Shown here one piece after another: positions 52,896 through 58,767 of a stretch of 64,000 nt of DNA. The stretch's first letter is position 1. Each line of letters opens with the position of its first letter. Source of the DNA: Felixounavirus NRG857CP1. The notes below the pieces were generated by a model. The model worked only from the letters and a program-made list of their open reading frames with translations. It had not been told where the DNA came from and did not search any database. The translations under genes were made by a program, and so were the position numbers. Where the stretch lies: the sequence record OZ035796.1. One strand, written 5' to 3'.

Positions 52896-52908
52896 AATTT
52901 TCTCCTTA

Positions 52909-52936
52909 GAAAATAAAAAAGGCTCCCGAAGGAGCC
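52909..52936 (-). terminator. rho-independent terminator (minus strand)
   Basis: On the minus strand GGCTCC-ttcg-GGAGCC followed by TTTTTTATTTT, directly after the lysozyme stop. Confidence 0.6.
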
Positions 52937-52946
52937 TATGAAGATA

Positions 52947-53411
52947 TTACTTTGGGTATACACTGTCAAGATAAATGTCAGCTTCCATTCTACGTCTGTT
53001 TTTCAGACCGTTTGAAGTGACCTTCTTACCCTTAACTGTAACCTTGTTCCACCACTGCATAGCTTCTGCACAACCTACCTTATTACCAGCATTGTGTCGC
53101 TTGATAAATGTAGAATCCTGCATAGCTGTGATACCGATGTTGTATGTTTCACTTACAAGTGCATCGAACTCATTCTGAGAAGTTGGAACCTTGATAGCTT
53201 TATTCACTGCTGCAACGAACTTCTCAACATCTGCAAGAAGATACTGTTCAGCTTGTTCGGCAGTAATTTTCATACCCATCTTAACAGGTTTTCCGTCAAT
53301 ACGGATTGTACCATACCCGATTGTCGGGATTCCGGCAGAGTCTTCGTAAGCCTCTAACTTCAGACCTTCAAAGAACTTAATAGCTTCTAGACCTTTTCTT
53401 GAGAGTTGCAT
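52947..53411 (-). CDS. endolysin, T4-type lysozyme (GH24-like)
   Basis: FEGLKLEAYEDSAGIPTIGYG matches the catalytic E...D...T region of T4 lysozyme ([21 protein letters not shown]) as recalled. Confidence 0.8.
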   Translation of the reverse strand: MQLSRKGLEAIKFFEGLKLEAYEDSAGIPTIGYGTIRIDGKPVKMGMKITAEQAEQYLLADVEKFVAAVNKAIKVPTSQNEFDALVSETYNIGITAMQDSTFIKRHNAGNKVGCAEAMQWWNKVTVKGKKVTSNGLKNRRRMEADIYLDSVYPK

Positions 53412-54292
53412 TATGCCTCCCCTGCTGGGTTAACTGTAACCGTTGCTGCATTAGATGTTACAGAGCCACCTGCGCCAGTAACTACACAGGTGTAGCTTCC
53501 TGCATCAGCAGTGGTTGCACCTTCTTTGGTGTAAGTTGCAGCAGTTGCATCGAGGATGTCTTCCTCACCTTTCTTCCATTGGTAACCTGTCGCACCTGTT
53601 GCCACAACATTCAGCGTTAAGGTCTCACCTTCAGTGATTTCTTGATTGGTTGGCTGTTGAGTGATAACTGGTAAAGCTTTCACAGTAACGGTTGCAGGGC
53701 TAGAAGTGACAGAACCACCTGCACCTGTTACAACGCAAGTGTATGAACCAGCATCAGAAGGTGCTACAGACTGTTTTGTGTAGGTTGCAGATGTGGCGCT
53801 AGTGATATTCTCACCATCCTTTTTCCATTGATATCCAGTGGCATTAGTTGCAATAATGCTTAGGGTAAGTGTACCACCTTCATTTACTGTTTGATTGGTT
53901 GGTTGCTGAGTAATTGATGGTGGCTTGATAGCATCCTTCAACTTAGCATTCAACATTGAGAATGGTTTAACTCTTGCCAACCATTCACAATAAACTGTAT
54001 CAACGTCTTTACCATTGATAATTGCATATTGTAAGTCCATGAAGAAGTCAGAGGTTCTCATTTGAGCACCAATGCTGTAAAGCAACTCATCACTAAATGG
54101 AACTTTGTAGTCTGGTTTGTAGTCAAACTCATCGACTTCTGCAATATCAGCTTCAGGCCAATACGAACTGTAGGTAAGCGGTAAAATAGCCTCTTGATAT
54201 GTTCTAAAATCATATCTCTTACCAGCCTTTACGTTTGCAATGAAGCCCTTCACAAACTCTTTGAAGTCTGGGTAAGTCTTTGCTTTAATCAT
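53411..54292 (-). CDS. protein with two tandem Ig-like domains
   Basis: Two ~88-aa repeats (ITQQPTNQ...GYQWKK...AGSYTCVVTGAGGSVTS...ATVTV) with Ig-type W and Y-x-C positions; N-terminal ~120 aa paralogous to the next gene. Confidence 0.6.
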   Translation of the reverse strand: MIKAKTYPDFKEFVKGFIANVKAGKRYDFRTYQEAILPLTYSSYWPEADIAEVDEFDYKPDYKVPFSDELLYSIGAQMRTSDFFMDLQYAIINGKDVDTVYCEWLARVKPFSMLNAKLKDAIKPPSITQQPTNQTVNEGGTLTLSIIATNATGYQWKKDGENITSATSATYTKQSVAPSDAGSYTCVVTGAGGSVTSSPATVTVKALPVITQQPTNQEITEGETLTLNVVATGATGYQWKKGEEDILDATAATYTKEGATTADAGSYTCVVTGAGGSVTSNAATVTVNPAGEA

Positions 54293-54660
54293 TTCTTTTT
54301 AGCCTCTAAATGTGCGTTTAGTCTAAAATAACCTTTGTGATGCGGAGATACGTCACCAACAACAATACCTTTAACCTTATAACCTTTACCAATTACATAC
54401 TGGATATCCATAAGGAATCTTCCAAGACCAACAATATGGAACATTGGATATAATAGATTCTCAGAGTCTGGAATATTGATTTCGGGTTTGTAGGTTCGAT
54501 GTTCGATTGTTGGTGTAATATCTTCTTCAGGCCATTTGCTGAGTCTCCATGTCAAAGGTGTTGGGATAACATCATTAAGGCTGTACCTTTCACCATTTTG
54601 CACGGAATTGACATAGGATTGTAGGAAGCAATAAAAGTCTTTTGCACTCTTAGCTTCCAT
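54289..54660 (-). CDS. hypothetical protein, paralog of the N-terminal domain of the Ig-like protein
   Basis: Shared blocks (RY, YKP, LLY, F-MD-QY-I) with 53411-54292. Confidence 0.5.
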   Translation of the reverse strand: MEAKSAKDFYCFLQSYVNSVQNGERYSLNDVIPTPLTWRLSKWPEEDITPTIEHRTYKPEINIPDSENLLYPMFHIVGLGRFLMDIQYVIGKGYKVKGIVVGDVSPHHKGYFRLNAHLEAKKK

Positions 54661-54707
54661 TAAATATCCTTATAAATAGTTAAAGGGGCATCAGCCCCTA
54701 TTCACAC

Positions 54708-55298
54708 TTAAGCTTTGGTCTTAAGTAGGTTCTTAAGTTTTTTAAGATTCATACTCTCATCAAACTTAAAACCAAATCCATTGACATAATCAATGAACTC
54801 GGATTTCTTACTGAGTGACAATGCGTAACTCATATCAAAGTTCTTACTTGTTTCTGCGTCTGGACTAGAGTTCACATCAAATGAAATTTCCGTAGGCTCT
54901 TGCTTACTTTTTCTCATATTATCAACCAACAAACATGTATAGTTTGCTGGATAGAAATTTACACTACCATCAACGTAGCTGTACTTATTATTATGGATAA
55001 GGTTGGAAAAGACCTTAAGGAATGTTTCTGAGTCGTGGCAAACAAGTTTGAATTGGCTGCTCTCTCCAAGCGCAACTAATGAGTACGGACTTTCACTATC
55101 AAAGTCATAATTTGGATTTGATGCCGTTACTGTTACACGCATCAAGTTATTAGCAATGGTCTTCTGTTTAAAAGAATTTTGAACATAGTGAAGACCTCTA
55201 TCACACTGATTGACTAGCTCTTTAAGTAGGTCATTTGCATATGGCGAATTAATTGATACAGAGCCATCACTATTGTAATTAAAACTTACTGTTAACAT
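54708..55298 (-). CDS. hypothetical protein
   Basis: 196-aa ORF. Confidence 0.5.
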   Translation of the reverse strand: MLTVSFNYNSDGSVSINSPYANDLLKELVNQCDRGLHYVQNSFKQKTIANNLMRVTVTASNPNYDFDSESPYSLVALGESSQFKLVCHDSETFLKVFSNLIHNNKYSYVDGSVNFYPANYTCLLVDNMRKSKQEPTEISFDVNSSPDAETSKNFDMSYALSLSKKSEFIDYVNGFGFKFDESMNLKKLKNLLKTKA

Positions 55299-55525
55299 TT
55301 TTCAGTTCTCCTGCGATTTATAATTTTGCTGCAATAGAGAAACGAAGTAAACTCACTGGAAGAAACCATTAAGTGTTGTTCACTAGATTGAGCCATTGCC
55401 CTGAAATACATTCCAGTCAAAGCATCATAGTGACTATTCTTTCCAATTGAGGTTATATAGCCATGACTCTTTGCAGTTTGATATAAATCTATAATATCTG
55501 CGATTTCTAATTGGGAACTACACAT
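55292..55525 (-). CDS. hypothetical protein
   Basis: 77-aa ORF. Confidence 0.4.
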   Translation of the reverse strand: MCSSQLEIADIIDLYQTAKSHGYITSIGKNSHYDALTGMYFRAMAQSSEQHLMVSSSEFTSFLYCSKIINRRRTEKC

Positions 55526-56371: not shown

Positions 56372-57787
56372 ATGAGCGAGTTATTTAAACATGCGCACCT
56401 TCATGCAGGTCGAACTGAAAATGGTGCTGTAAACCATACTTCATCAATGTCTGCTCTGGTAGACTTCTACAAAGCCGCTGGCTCAAGCCGTAGCAATGTA
56501 GAAATCTTACCAGACCTGTTCTACAAAGCTTTGCGTGAGGATGTTGATGTTGCAGTTCGTATTTTACTGCATATGCGAGATGTACGAGAAGGCATGGGTG
56601 AGCGTAAAGCTTTCCGAACTGTTTTACTTCAAGCGATTGAAGATAAAGTTTTAGAACCTACACAGGTTCTTCGCATTATGGATAAGATTGCAGAACTTGG
56701 TCGTTTTGATGACTTCAAAATCTTCGTAGGTACTCGTTTCGAGACAGATGCCTTCAAACATTTAGAAGCAGCATTACTAGACCCTGCAACAGCAGGTTTA
56801 GCAGCTAAGTGGTTGCCACGAGTAAAACCACGCCACAAACAGTTTGTAAAACGTTTCTGTAAATTTGCAAACTTAAGCGAGAAGGAGTATCGCACACTGT
56901 TATCTGCACTGTCTGATACGGTTGAGCAAAAAATCTCTGCTAATGAGTTTGGTAAGATTGACTACAGCAAGATTCCTTCACTCGCTGCTGCACGTTACCA
57001 AAAACTCTTTAACCGTAAAGATGGAGAACGTTACAAAGCTTACATCGAATCACTCTCAAAGGGTGAGGCTAAGATTAACGCTGGTGCTGTTTACCCATAT
57101 GATGTGATTAAATCTATCAAGCATGGTAATGCAGATGTTGCTAATGAGCAGTGGAAAGCACTACCAAACTGGATGGCAGAAGGTGAGAACATCTTATGTA
57201 TGACTGATGTCTCAAGTTCAATGTCTTTGGTGAACTTTGGTTCAATTACTGCCCTTGATATTGGTGTATCACTTGCCTTGTATGTAGCAGAACGCAATAC
57301 AGGTTGCTTTAAAGATGAGTTAATGGTCTATTCAACAAACCCTCATTTCATTGAACTGAGTGGTGATTTACGAAACCGTCATCGTCAGGTAATGCGTCAT
57401 GTTGAATATGGTTCAACTAACTTACAAGCAGCTTTTGACCGTATTCTTGAAATAGGTAAGAGAAACAACTTGACTCAGAAAGATATGCCAAGTAAGCTTA
57501 TCATCTTCTCTGATATGGAGTTCAATCAGGTTGATGGTGCAAATGGTCGTACAAACTTTGAAGCAATTCAGAGTAAGTACAAAAAAGCTGGATACGAAAT
57601 GCCACAACTAGTATTCTGGTACTTAGCAAACCGTAATGGTACTTGCGAAGTATCTGTTAAGGATAATGGTGTAGCAATGGTATCAGGGTTCTCTCCAGCC
57701 ACTTTAAAAGCTCTGCTTGGTGGTGAGAAGTTTGACCCAATCAGCGTAATGCTCAAAGCAGTAATGATTGACCGTTACATCTGGTAA
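56372..57787 (+). CDS. vWA-domain protein with N-terminal helical domain (possible Ro60/TROVE-like architecture)
   Basis: 471 aa; C-terminal vWA fold with MIDAS-type DxSxS (MTDVSSSM), later STNLQ and LIIFSDMEF elements; the N-terminal ~270 aa was not assignable by eye. Confidence 0.5.
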   Translation: MSELFKHAHLHAGRTENGAVNHTSSMSALVDFYKAAGSSRSNVEILPDLFYKALREDVDVAVRILLHMRDVREGMGERKAFRTVLLQAIEDKVLEPTQVLRIMDKIAELGRFDDFKIFVGTRFETDAFKHLEAALLDPATAGLAAKWLPRVKPRHKQFVKRFCKFANLSEKEYRTLLSALSDTVEQKISANEFGKIDYSKIPSLAAARYQKLFNRKDGERYKAYIESLSKGEAKINAGAVYPYDVIKSIKHGNADVANEQWKALPNWMAEGENILCMTDVSSSMSLVNFGSITALDIGVSLALYVAERNTGCFKDELMVYSTNPHFIELSGDLRNRHRQVMRHVEYGSTNLQAAFDRILEIGKRNNLTQKDMPSKLIIFSDMEFNQVDGANGRTNFEAIQSKYKKAGYEMPQLVFWYLANRNGTCEVSVKDNGVAMVSGFSPATLKALLGGEKFDPISVMLKAVMIDRYIW

Positions 57788-57952: not shown

Positions 57953-58029
57953 CTCTGTTTAGCTCAGCTTGGTAGAGCGTTCCGTTTGGGGCGGTAAGGC
58001 CGGAGGTTCAAGTCCTCCAACAGAGACCA
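57953..58029 (+). tRNA. tRNA-Pro (anticodon TGG)
   Basis: Hand-folded cloverleaf: 7-bp acceptor CTCTGTT/AACAGAG, D-arm GCTC/GAGC, anticodon loop TTTGGGG, T-arm GGAGG-TTCAAGT-CCTCC, encoded CCA. Confidence 0.7.
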
Positions 58030-58036
58030 AATTAAT

Positions 58037-58114
58037 GTTCCAGTAGACAAAACGGTAAAGTCACCACTCTTTCAAAGTGGATATTTGAGGGTTCAAATCC
58101 CTTCTGGAACGCCA
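58037..58114 (+). tRNA. tRNA-Glu (anticodon TTC)
   Basis: Acceptor GTTCCAG/CTGGAAC, anticodon stem CCACT/AGTGG with loop CTTTCAA, T-loop TTCAAAT, CCA. Confidence 0.7.
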
Positions 58115-58121
58115 GTTTTGA

Positions 58122-58194
58122 CAGAAGACCAATTACAGCAAACTTAATCTTATTCATCTGAAGCTAAATCGGACAAAGAAGAGATTTGGTCTGG
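58122..58194 (+). ncRNA. conserved stem element A1 (CAGAAGACCA...TGGTCTGG)
   Basis: 20-nt conserved 5' box CAGAAGACCAATTACAGCAA and downstream complementary TGGTCTGG; member of a 4-copy family with covarying stem bases. Confidence 0.4.
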
Positions 58195-58206
58195 TCATTA
58201 AGAATT

Positions 58207-58281
58207 GCGGGTATAGAGAAAGGGCGTCTCACATGTCTCATTAGCATGGTATCGGCAGGTTCGACTCCTGCACCCGCCTCC
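58207..58281 (+). tRNA. tRNA with CAT anticodon (Met or Ile2)
   Basis: Anticodon stem CATGT/GCATG with loop CTCATTA; T-arm GCAGG-TTCGACT-CCTGC; acceptor GCGGGT/ACCCGC. Confidence 0.6.
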
Positions 58282-58288
58282 AATTTTG

Positions 58289-58348
58289 CAGAAGACCGTA
58301 TGCAGCAATAAACTACTTTTTGCGGATAAAAGAAAAAACACGGTCTGG
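58289..58348 (+). ncRNA. conserved stem element A2 (CAGAAGACCG...CGGTCTGG)
   Basis: Same 5' box with A-to-G change matched by T-to-C in the 3' partner (covariation). Confidence 0.4.
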
Positions 58349-58359
58349 CAATGTATTAA

Positions 58360-58436
58360 GGTTAGGAAGCACATAAGGTATGTGCGGTCGCCTGTTAAGC
58401 GAATGGCACAGGGTTCGAATCCCTGACTAACCGCCA
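58360..58436 (+). tRNA. tRNA-Asn (anticodon GTT)
   Basis: Acceptor GGTTAGG/ACTAACC, D-stem GCAC/GTGC, anticodon loop CTGTTAA, T-arm CAGGG-TTCGAAT-CCCTG, CCA. Confidence 0.65.
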
Positions 58437-58445
58437 AATTTAAAT

Positions 58446-58533
58446 GTGTCGTTATCCCGTAGATGGTAGCGGTGGGGACTGTAAATCCCTTGTCATTGAG
58501 ACTCGGTAGGTTCGACTCCTACACGGCACACCA
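58446..58533 (+). tRNA. tRNA-Tyr (anticodon GTA), long variable arm
   Basis: 88 nt; acceptor GTGTCGT/ACGGCAC; anticodon stem GGGGA/TCCCT with loop CTGTAAA; long variable arm; T-loop TTCGACT; CCA. Confidence 0.7.
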
Positions 58534-58539
58534 AATAAA

Positions 58540-58616
58540 GGTTATGTAGTTTAACTGGATAAAATACTCCCCTGTCACGGGAGATGATGTGAGTTCAAGT
58601 CTCATCGTAACCGCCA
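58540..58616 (+). tRNA. tRNA-Asp (anticodon GTC)
   Basis: Acceptor GGTTATG/CGTAACC; anticodon stem CTCCC/GGGAG with loop CTGTCAC; T-loop TTCAAGT; CCA. Confidence 0.7.
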
Positions 58617-58677
58617 ATTTTGAGAGGGCTATTTAGCTCCTCCCTTAAAGAGTTCTTACGAGTATTCTTTAAAGGAG

Positions 58678-58754
58678 CAGAAGACCAATTACAGCAAGTA
58701 CGTATGATATTTTCAAGCCAATTTAATTTTGAAAAAATTTAAAACTTGGTCTGG
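58678..58754 (+). ncRNA. conserved stem element A3 (CAGAAGACCA...TGGTCTGG)
   Basis: Third copy of the conserved box with matching 3' partner. Confidence 0.4.
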
Positions 58755-58767
58755 CTCAACAAATTTA

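What the first reader, a model, noticed from the sequence alone, without database searches (positions are those of the whole stretch)
53411..54660. Tandem Ig-like-domain protein next to the endolysin, with a paralog of its N-terminal domain
Two ~88-aa Ig-like repeats are fused to an N-terminal domain that is duplicated as a separate gene immediately upstream. Ig-like domains on phage proteins are usually surface-exposed decoration or adhesion modules. The position beside lysozyme leaves the role open between virion decoration and cell-wall targeting.
Basis: partly seen in the sequence, partly recalled or inferred. Interest (0 to 1): 0.4.

Follow-up and report, generated by a model that had tools for sequence, protein, structure and literature searches.

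The report
Known capsid decoration protein plus paralog
The Ig-domain gene is the already solved "Hex-Dec" head-decoration protein of Felix O1-like phages, which plugs into capsid hexamer centres; the only open question is the small upstream gene, an unstudied and dispensable copy of its capsid-binding domain.

Summary
On the minus strand, 53411-54292 encodes a 293-aa protein: an N-terminal domain of about 122 aa plus two Ig (I-set) repeats of 83 and 86 aa. The gene at 54289-54660 encodes a 123-aa paralog of that N-terminal domain. A phage lysozyme follows at 52947-53411.

The window is a Felixounavirus. The 293-aa protein is the orthologue of Bas63 Hex-Dec (PDB 9NCF chain S) and Sf14 gp20 (PDB 9C2D chain S). 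[quoted passage not shown] The Ig string projects outward, as in T4 Hoc. So the protein is head decoration, not a "tail protein" (the database label) and not cell-wall targeting. Adjacency to the lysozyme is ancestral synteny.

The paralog is not mentioned in the two structure papers I read. It is under purifying selection (dN/dS 0.13). The Felix O1 genome paper reports it co-expressed late with Hex-Dec. It is predicted to share the CapBD fold but lacks the capsid-anchoring Arg79. It was not detected in published virion proteomes, and about 18 phages have lost it. Its role is unknown.

Verdict: already known, low interest. The paralog is a modest testable lead.

The parts
53411..54292 (-). Hex-Dec orthologue (293 aa): the hexamer-centre head decoration protein. 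Databases often label it 'tail protein'.
   Evidence: phmmer against PDB: 9ncf_S (Bas63 Hex-Dec) E 9e-242 and 9c2d_S (Sf14 gp20) E 5e-192, both full length. phrog_3995 E 9e-168.
53927..54292 (-). Capsid-binding domain (CapBD), residues 1-122, including Arg79 and Arg107.
   Evidence: Nearly identical to the modelled part of 9ncf_S and 9c2d_S. Arg79 and Arg107 are present; in Sf14 they salt-bridge to MCP Asp221 (PMC11821841). dN/dS 0.04.
53672..53920 (-). Ig-like domain 1 (residues 125-207). It is a hybrid unit: type-1 N-part joined to a type-2 C-part.
   Evidence: Pfam Ig_3 / I-set. The N-part is 96% identical to Ig1 of a 4-Ig allele and the C-part 96% to its Ig2, joined at DAGSYTCVV.
53414..53671 (-). 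Ig-like domain 2 (residues 208-293), the terminal unit. It corresponds to Ig4 of the 4-Ig alleles such as Bas63.
   Evidence: 95% identical to Ig4 of the 4-Ig allele in L009. Near-identical to residues 376-458 of 9ncf_S.
54289..54660 (-). CapBD-only paralog (123 aa, phrog_4463). Equivalent to Felix O1 ORF37, Sf14 gp21, Bas63 gene 125 and VpaE1 ORF40c.
   Evidence: - Pairwise E 7e-15 to the CapBD and E 5e-11 to 9ncf_S residues 3-117.
- AF2 model matches only 9c2d_S and 9ncf_S (TM 0.65-0.69).
- dN/dS 0.13 and an intact ORF in 27 of 27 loci.
- Orthologue positions confirmed.
52947..53411 (-). Endolysin (T4-type phage lysozyme, 154 aa), the last gene of the three-gene cassette.
   Evidence: PF00959 E 6.6e-41; phrog_7 endolysin.
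54684..54699 (-). GC-rich hairpin just upstream of the paralog (Felix O1 't38'). An AAGGA ribosome-binding site follows it before the paralog ATG.
   Evidence: Sequence. Fold -14.4 kcal/mol, z -2.5. Identical to terminator t38 in the Felix O1 paper, Table 2.
52920..52937 (-). Intrinsic terminator after the endolysin (Felix O1 't35'), closing the cassette.
   Evidence: Terminator scan: AGGCTCCTTCGGGAGCCT followed by a T-run. Fold -12.9 kcal/mol, z -3.6. Listed as t35.

Best explanation
**Hex-Dec.**
- The 293-aa protein is this phage's Hex-Dec, a monomeric, Hoc-like head decoration protein.
- Its N-terminal capsid-binding domain of about 120 aa plugs into the acidic centre of major-capsid-protein hexamers. 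It uses Arg79 and Arg107 as salt-bridge anchors.
- In the solved relatives it occupies only the 60 pentamer-proximal hexamers of the T=9 head.
- The two flexible Ig-like domains project from the capsid surface.
- By analogy with T4 Hoc they probably mediate weak adhesion to surfaces or host envelopes. This step is inferred, not shown.
- The Ig number (1-4 among relatives) changes by unequal recombination between repeat units.

**Gene context.**
- The gene sits in a compact paralog / Hex-Dec / endolysin cassette bounded by hairpins, away from the structural module.
- Linkage to the lysozyme reflects shared gene order and late expression, not a cell-wall function.

**The paralog.**
- The upstream 123-aa gene is a tandem duplicate of the capsid-binding domain alone.
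- My best guess (about 35%) is an Ig-less hexamer-binding accessory. It would act transiently or sub-stoichiometrically during head assembly or decoration.
- It is not a stable major virion component.
For: **Shown here.**
- The window is a Felixounavirus: 100% identity to OZ035806.1 over window 52900-55300, and 239 related records.
- Full-length match to the two solved chains. Arg79 and Arg107 are retained.
- The order paralog, Hex-Dec, lysozyme is unchanged in the 29 of 33 related loci that carry all three genes.
- Hex-Dec carries 1, 2, 3 or 4 Ig units. The window's Ig1 is a type-1/type-2 hybrid joined at DAGSYTCVV, and the 1-Ig alleles are Ig1/Ig4 hybrids.
- An exhaustive profile search finds a tiny family: 13 representatives among 1.84 billion proteins. 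Its distant members fuse the CapBD to Big_2 or other Ig types.
- The distant members keep the order orf196-homologue then Hex-Dec, with no paralog. A lysozyme follows wherever the contig extends downstream (L037, L043).
- Paralog: dN/dS 0.13. A lineage with only 45% identity keeps it. Its fold matches only the CapBDs.

**From papers.**
- Cryo-EM placement and the Arg-Asp221 contacts (PMC11821841; PMC12609058).
- Felix O1 gp36 was in virions at 44% coverage. ORFs 36 and 37 were both maximal at 60 min, while the flanking ORFs 35 and 38 peaked at 25 min (PMC3185647; gene identities confirmed).
- Bas63 gene 124 (Hex-Dec) was singled out as more essential on E. coli S17-1 than on three other strains (identity confirmed).
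Against: **Hex-Dec.**
- Nothing was measured on this particular phage.
- The Ig domains are disordered in both maps, and no ligand is known.
- The adhesion role rests on analogy with Hoc and on one pooled-screen phenotype.

**The paralog as a capsid binder.**
- Every paralog has Gly at the Arg79 position and His, Gln or Arg at position 107.
- Its pI is 8.6 against 5.0 for the CapBD.
- It is absent from the Felix O1 virion list, which used a 25% coverage cut-off.
- By inference from the text it is also absent from the 22 VpaE1 virion proteins.
- Both cryo-EM papers report no density on the remaining hexamers.
- 19 records (18 phages) carry one shared internal deletion of about 223 nt.
- The Bas63 gene 125 knockout was near neutral on S17-1 (+0.16, +0.52, +0.26). 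On the same sheet the major capsid protein scored -1.41, -0.30, -1.02.
Confidence: 0.93

Rival explanations
1. It is a tail protein, as most GenBank, RefSeq and PHROG annotations say (phrog_3995 'tail protein'; Felix O1 gp36 'major tail protein').
For: The annotation is widespread. PHROG major-tail-protein families hit the protein (phrog_158, 853, 3575). The Felix O1 orthologue was found in whole virions.
Against: - Those tail-family hits cover essentially only the Ig region (about residues 96-206).
- The N-terminal domain is modelled in capsid hexamer centres in two independent cryo-EM studies.
- The label dates from the 2010 Felix O1 paper, which had no localisation data.
Confidence: 0.02
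2. It is a cell-wall or envelope-targeting partner of the adjacent endolysin, a lysis accessory whose Ig domains bind peptidoglycan or LPS from within.
For: The overlap with the lysozyme gene is immediate, and the adjacency is conserved even in distant lineages.
Against: - The protein is a virion capsid component.
- In Felix O1 the lysin peaks at 25 min while ORF36 and ORF37 peak at 60 min.
- The lysozyme is a complete single-domain enzyme.
- On S17-1 the endolysin knockout scored far lower (-1.19, -1.05, -1.11) than the Hex-Dec knockout (-0.23, -0.11, -0.15), so the two behave differently.
Confidence: 0.03
3. The paralog has taken on a new, non-capsid role. It keeps the small two-lobed fold but binds another phage or host partner during late infection.
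For: - The Arg79 anchor is replaced by Gly in every paralog, within a paralog-specific, near-invariant HIVGLG...DVSPxHKGY surface.
- The charge is reversed: pI 8.6 against 5.0.
- It was not detected in virions or in the maps.
- It evolves faster than the CapBD but remains under constraint (dN/dS 0.13 against 0.04).
Against: - It stays strictly next to Hex-Dec with overlapping or abutting stop and start codons, and is co-expressed late with it.
- Arg79 is not universal even among distant Hex-Decs, so its loss does not rule out hexamer binding.
- A basic protein would suit the acidic hexamer centre.
Confidence: 0.3
4. The paralog is a functionless remnant of duplication, or it matters only as an upstream ORF that carries the Hex-Dec ribosome-binding site and delivers ribosomes.
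For: - It has been lost in 18 phages, and the deletion allele keeps exactly the 3' end that carries the AGAGG site and the start context of Hex-Dec.
- The Bas63 knockout is near neutral.
Against: - dN/dS is 0.13, the length stays at 122-124 aa in 27 of 27 loci, and the C-terminal half is nearly invariant.
- It is retained in a lineage whose paralog has diverged to 45% identity.
- Amino-acid-level constraint is not expected for a mere leader ORF.
Confidence: 0.1

Closest known systems
Bas63 (Escherichia phage JohannRWettstein) Hex-Dec, PDB 9NCF chain S; gene bas63_0124
   Same: - Orthologue: the CapBD is about 97-98% identical, and Arg79 and Arg107 are retained.
- The Ig type is the same, and the window's terminal Ig matches Bas63 Ig4.
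- The neighbours are the same: paralog bas63_0125 upstream and endolysin bas63_0123 downstream.
   Different: - Bas63 has four Ig domains and this phage has two.
- The first of the two is a recombinant Ig1/Ig2 hybrid.
Shigella phage Sf14 gp20 (Mooglevirus), PDB 9C2D / 9C3A chain S
   Same: - The architecture and gene order are the same (gp21 paralog, gp20, gp19 endolysin).
- The CapBD is 88% identical.
- It binds pentamer-proximal hexamers through Arg79 and Arg107 to MCP Asp221.
   Different: It has three Ig domains that are more diverged (55-69% identity to the Felixounavirus units).
[quoted passage not shown]
   Same: - It works the same way: a monomer at hexamer centres, with a small capsid-binding domain plus a string of Ig-like domains.
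- It is non-essential, and the Ig number varies among relatives.
- PHROG 'Hoc-like' families hit the Ig region.
   Different: - The domain order is reversed: the Hoc CapBD is C-terminal.
- The CapBD is topologically distinct and unrelated in sequence.
- Hex-Dec has a pseudo-C2 two-lobed CapBD and occupies only 60 of the 80 hexamers (PMC12609058).
- I know of no CapBD-only paralog for Hoc; this rests on my own knowledge and was not tested.
T5 pb10 head decoration protein
   Same: The N-terminal capsid-binding domain is followed by a C-terminal Ig-like domain, and it sits at hexamer centres (as described in PMC11821841). PDB 'Decoration protein' chains 5lxk_A and 8zvi_a match the Ig region at E 2e-10.
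   Different: It has a single Ig domain. No sequence similarity was detected outside the Ig region in any search here.

Membership tests
Ounavirinae Hex-Dec / Sf14 gp20 hexamer-centre decoration protein | N-terminal capsid-binding domain of about 120 aa, homologous to the modelled parts of 9NCF_S and 9C2D_S | tested here: met
   phmmer E 9e-242 and 5e-192 over the full length; residues 1-122 are nearly identical.
Ounavirinae Hex-Dec / Sf14 gp20 hexamer-centre decoration protein | Arg79 and Arg107, which salt-bridge to MCP Asp221 in Sf14 | tested here: met
   Both residues are present at the same positions. The contact itself is taken from PMC11821841.
Ounavirinae Hex-Dec / Sf14 gp20 hexamer-centre decoration protein | C-terminal string of 1-4 I-set-type Ig-like domains | tested here: met
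   Two units at residues 125-207 and 208-293. Relatives carry 1-4.
Ounavirinae Hex-Dec / Sf14 gp20 hexamer-centre decoration protein | Encoded outside the structural module, immediately upstream of the endolysin | tested here: met
   The lysozyme overlaps the stop codon. No MCP gene lies in the 64-kb window. The arrangement is the same in Felix O1, Sf14 and Bas63.
Ounavirinae Hex-Dec / Sf14 gp20 hexamer-centre decoration protein | Physically bound at the centres of the pentamer-proximal capsid hexamers | not testable with these tools
   Shown by cryo-EM for Sf14 and Bas63 and by virion MS for Felix O1 gp36. Inferred for this phage from about 97% identity.
T4 Hoc family | Hoc-type capsid-binding domain at the C-terminus, after the N-terminal Ig domains | tested here: not met
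   The CapBD here is N-terminal. The PHROG 'Hoc-like' hits (phrog_2973, 4069, 3945) cover only residues 121-291. The Bas63 paper reports a distinct topology and reversed order. It is a functional analogue, not a member.
Phage major tail / tail tube proteins with Ig-like C-terminal domains (the source of the 'tail protein' label) | A tail-tube or tail structural domain outside the Ig region | tested here: not met
   Tail-family PHROG hits are limited to about residues 96-206. The N-terminus matches only capsid-bound chains.
CapBD family, applied to the 123-aa paralog | Sequence and fold homology to the Hex-Dec capsid-binding domain over its whole length | tested here: met
   BLASTP E 7e-15. phmmer against PDB E 5e-11 over residues 2-117. 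The AF2 model (pLDDT 74) matches only 9c2d_S and 9ncf_S, TM 0.65-0.69.
CapBD family, applied to the 123-aa paralog | The capsid-anchoring arginines (Arg79, Arg107) | tested here: not met
   Position 79 is Gly in all five paralogs aligned (five diverse lineages). Position 107 is His, Gln, or Arg in one lineage. Caveat: Arg79 is also missing from some distant Hex-Decs.
CapBD family, applied to the 123-aa paralog | Presence on the capsid | not testable with these tools
   The literature is negative so far. It is not in the Felix O1 virion list. It is not among the proteins newly detected in VpaE1. Neither cryo-EM study reports unassigned hexamer density.

The most novel reading that the evidence does not exclude
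The conserved 123-aa CapBD-only paralog (Felix O1 ORF37, Sf14 gp21, Bas63 gene 125) may be an unrecognised second hexamer-centre ligand. It is a basic, Ig-less 'cap'. It could bind MCP hexamers transiently, for example on procapsids or on the 20 true three-fold hexamers that Hex-Dec leaves empty. In that way it could set where and when Hex-Dec is installed. That would make the pair a two-component decoration system produced by tandem duplication.
Probability: 0.3. Interest if true: 0.45.

Novelty: already known. Interest (0 to 1): 0.22.

Why it matters
**Main protein.** The practical value is annotation. Hundreds of Felixounavirus, Mooglevirus and Suspvirus records call this gene 'tail protein', but it is a capsid hexamer decoration protein with a solved anchor domain. 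Like Hoc, it is a natural display scaffold, and the number of Ig units is freely variable.

**What this analysis adds.**
- Ig copy number changes by unequal recombination at the DAGSYTCVV motif, which produces hybrid units.
- The CapBD family is tiny. It has swapped Ig types (I-set, Big_2) while keeping its place between an orf196-like gene and, where sequenced, the lysozyme.
- The CapBD was tandemly duplicated once into a stand-alone gene that is conserved yet dispensable and has no assigned role.

**If the paralog binds capsids.** It might help explain why Hex-Dec decorates only 60 of the 80 hexamers. That would be a small but clean test case for how decoration patterns are set.

Tried and rejected
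- **Frameshift fusion.** A -1 frameshift would fuse the paralog to Hex-Dec. The window has T AAA AAG two codons before the paralog stop, and Hex-Dec lies in the -1 frame. The motif is not conserved: Mooglevirus, Suspvirus and some Felixounavirus alleles read GCTAAGAA, GCTAATAA or GCTGAAAAG. Rejected as a conserved feature.
- **Shared late-promoter motif.** TATTTATAAGG sits upstream of the paralog. It gives 4 matches with one mismatch allowed against 1.8 expected, and 12 of 100 shuffles do as well. Not significant in this window.
- **Sigma-70 promoter scan of 52-56.4 kb.** 10 sites against 9.9 expected. Uninformative.
- **DNA-level direct repeats.** Only two short paralog-to-CapBD matches were found. 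The Ig units are too diverged at 66%.
- **Word-indexed homologue search with the CapBD.** It returned almost only 210-aa one-Ig forms, so it did not give an architecture census. The exhaustive profile search was used instead.
- **VpaE1 proteomics Table S2.** It is held only as an image, so the paralog's absence there is inferred from the main text.
- **Sf14 supplements.** They do not list the full MS hits, so the status of gp21 is unknown.
- **SP3_SHan-2021 chimera.** Paralog residues 1-48 are fused at WPE-E/A-DI to Hex-Dec. It exists in one record only. Its 99.3%-identical relatives have two genes. It may be a recent deletion or an assembly collapse, so I give it little weight.
- **Literature.** A search for Felixounavirus transcriptomics returned nothing.
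Full report
**What is in the sequence**

On the minus strand there are three tightly packed ORFs.
- 54289-54660: 123 aa.
- 53411-54292: 293 aa.
- 52947-53411: 154 aa.

The last is a T4-type phage lysozyme (PF00959, E 6.6e-41). The 293-aa protein has two Ig-like repeats (Ig_3 1.6e-22, I-set 2.1e-17). Using the P-x-I-T-x-Q-P register, these are residues 125-207 and 208-293, which are 66% identical to each other. Its N-terminal ~120 residues are 34% identical to the 123-aa protein, E 7e-15. The paralog's stop overlaps the next start as ATGA, and the Ig gene's stop shares one base with the lysozyme start. A GC hairpin sits just upstream of the paralog (54684-54699). A strong intrinsic terminator follows the lysozyme (52920-52937). 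The only corrections are the repeat lengths: 83 and 86 aa, not about 88.

**Where it comes from**

Window 52900-55300 is 100% identical to Felixounavirus NRG857CP1 (OZ035806.1) and 90-97% identical to over 160 Felix O1-like phages of E. coli, Salmonella and Shigella. The rest of the window carries replication and nucleotide-metabolism genes and a 25-tRNA cluster. It holds no major capsid protein gene.

**What the Ig protein is**

A sequence search of the PDB gives full-length matches to two chains.
- Chain S of 9NCF (Bas63 capsid, 'Immunoglobulin-like domain protein'), E 9e-242.
- Chain S of 9C2D/9C3A (Sf14 capsid), E 5e-192.

The two cryo-EM papers describe this protein as Hex-Dec / gp20 (PMC12609058; PMC11821841).
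- Only the 60 pentamer-proximal hexamers of the T=9 shell are occupied.
- The Ig domains are disordered and project outward.
- In Sf14, Arg79 and Arg107 salt-bridge to Asp221 of three MCP subunits. Both arginines are present here.
- Both papers compare it functionally with T4 Hoc. They note the reversed domain order and an unrelated CapBD.
- The Bas63 paper notes that the gene lies more than 10 kb from the structural module and that relatives carry one to four Ig domains.

Two older lines of evidence fit. In Felix O1, gp36 (31.6 kDa, 'tail protein') was found in CsCl-purified virions at 44% coverage. I confirmed that ORF35/36/37 are endolysin, Ig protein and paralog. That 2010 label is evidently the origin of the 'tail protein' annotation that PHROGs and RefSeq still carry. 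The tail-family profile hits cover essentially only the Ig region. So the protein is head decoration. The cell-wall-targeting alternative has no support.

**Why it sits next to the lysozyme**

The order paralog, Hex-Dec, lysozyme is unchanged in the 29 of 33 related loci that carry all three genes. An exhaustive profile search with a CapBD-plus-paralog alignment found only 13 cluster representatives among 1.84 billion proteins. The distant members are a CapBD fused to Big_2, I-set or other Ig-like domains.

In their contigs the order is orf196-homologue then CapBD-Ig, again beside the DUF5681 and DUF2828 genes. A lysozyme follows wherever the contig extends downstream (L037, L043). So the adjacency is old synteny. 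In Felix O1 the lysin peaked at 25 min but ORFs 36 and 37 at 60 min with the other structural genes, which argues against a shared lysis role.

**Ig copy number**

Among the 27 fully analysed loci I found 1 (4 loci), 2 (11), 3 (10) and 4 (2) Ig units. Several units are recombinant hybrids.
- The window's first unit has the N-part of type 1 (96%) and the C-part of type 2 (96%), joined at the conserved DAGSYTCVV motif.
- Its second unit is the terminal type 4 (95%).
- Other two-Ig alleles have an intact Ig1 plus Ig4.
- One-Ig alleles are Ig1/Ig4 hybrids.

Copy number therefore changes by repeated unequal recombination between units, and two-Ig forms arose more than once.

**The paralog**

Neither structure paper mentions it. 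The evidence falls into four groups.

*It is a real gene under constraint.*
- It is present at at least 80% coverage in 232 of 252 matching phage records.
- Its length is always 122-124 aa, and dN/dS is 0.13. The CapBD gives 0.04 and the lysozyme 0.08.
- The C-terminal half is nearly invariant.
- A divergent 87-kb metagenomic phage keeps the trio although its paralog is only 45% identical.
- The more distant lineages lack it. It therefore arose once, by tandem duplication of the 5' part of Hex-Dec.

*It probably keeps the fold.*
- Its AF2 model (pLDDT 74, pTM 0.73) matches only the two solved CapBDs in the PDB (TM 0.65-0.69, E about 1e-5). Nothing else scores better than E 0.5.

*It differs from the CapBD where the CapBD touches the capsid.*
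- Position 79 is Gly in all five paralogs aligned.
- Position 107 is His or Gln, or Arg in one lineage.
- The pI is 8.6 against 5.0 for the CapBD.

*It has not been seen in particles, and phages can live without it.*
- It is absent from the Felix O1 virion list.
- By inference it is absent from the VpaE1 list. Only gp54, gp58 and gp68 were new there relative to Felix O1, and the paralog is ORF40c.
- Both maps show no density on the other hexamers.
- 19 records (18 phages from several countries and hosts) share one internal deletion of about 223 nt. It retains the 3' end carrying the Hex-Dec AGAGG ribosome-binding site.
- In the PhageMaP screen of Bas63 on S17-1, three genes can be compared (gene identities).
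  - Gene 125: +0.16, +0.52, +0.26.
  - MCP: -1.41, -0.30, -1.02.
  - Endolysin: -1.19, -1.05, -1.11.
- The same study singled out gene 124 (Hex-Dec) as more important on S17-1 than on three other strains.

**Mechanism, with the status of each step**

| Step | Status |
|---|---|
| Identity, domain layout, anchor residues, synteny, repeat recombination, and the origin of and constraint on the paralog | Shown here |
| Position on the capsid, the Arg-Asp contacts, presence in virions, late co-expression, conditional fitness effect | Shown in relatives by others |
| The Ig domains mediate weak adhesion, as in Hoc | Inferred |
| The paralog acts on the capsid or during its assembly | Inferred |

My preferred reading of the paralog is a transient or low-copy Ig-less hexamer binder that modulates decoration. 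I put it at only about 35%. A new non-capsid function is about 30%. A nearly functionless leader ORF is about 10%. The remainder is something not considered here.

**Verdict**

The flagged gene is an already characterised protein, a structurally solved decoration protein in two close relatives. The finding is ordinary, and its main consequence is a correction of the 'tail protein' label. It is a modest lead that is easy to test.

Noticed in passing
window 54708-55298 (-): A 196-aa ORF (phrog_4034, function unknown) lies directly upstream of the cassette. Its homologues (25-50% identity) precede the CapBD-Ig gene in most of the distant lineages examined, so its link to Hex-Dec is older than the paralog. 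The Felix O1 orthologue ORF38 peaked at 25 min and was not found in virions.
   Followed up: partly
L004 2306-2497 (REP5); L005 (vB_CECAV_041); 19 records: A clade of 18 Felixounaviruses shares one internal deletion of about 223 nt in the paralog. Members include REP5-12, Tf, SP116, mio, Z31, P54, fBSPA4, fKMPT1, EcF-vB and CECAV_FGS030/041. The decayed remnant keeps the upstream hairpin and the Hex-Dec ribosome-binding site. These phages are ready-made natural knockouts.
   Followed up: yes
L003 2501-3379 (Salmonella phage SP3_SHan-2021): A single chimeric gene has paralog residues 1-48 joined at the shared WPE-E/A-DI motif to Hex-Dec residue ~51 onward, with exactly one paralog-to-paralog unit (374 nt) missing. 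It occurs in one record only, and the 99.3%-identical relatives have two genes. It is either a recent unequal crossover or an assembly collapse.
   Followed up: partly
window 54293-54306 (-): The dnaX-like slippery run T AAA AAG sits two codons before the paralog stop, and Hex-Dec lies in the -1 frame. A frameshift would give a tandem-CapBD fusion. The motif is absent from Mooglevirus, Suspvirus and some Felixounavirus alleles, so it is probably incidental.
   Followed up: yes
window 56372-57787 (+) and 57953-63585 (+): A 471-aa DUF2828/DUF7788/vWA protein (phrog_850 'RNA-binding protein', Ro60/TROVE-like) lies immediately upstream of a cluster of 25 tRNA genes. The same DUF2828 and DUF5681 pair flanks the Hex-Dec cassette in the distant metagenomic lineages.
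   Followed up: no
L037, L041-L044 (metagenomic contigs): Distant CapBD family members carry different display modules: Big_2 (P0099, P0100), I-set (P0101), Big-like (P0102), a Lys/Ser-rich tail with no Ig (P0103), or a longer uncharacterised C-terminal region with no Pfam hit (P0104). The anchor domain is a portable capsid-docking module.
   Followed up: partly
and one search hit lists: One record named 'Staphylococcus phage SA1' carries a 99%-identical paralog and the whole Felix O1-like region. The host label on that record is probably wrong.
   Followed up: no
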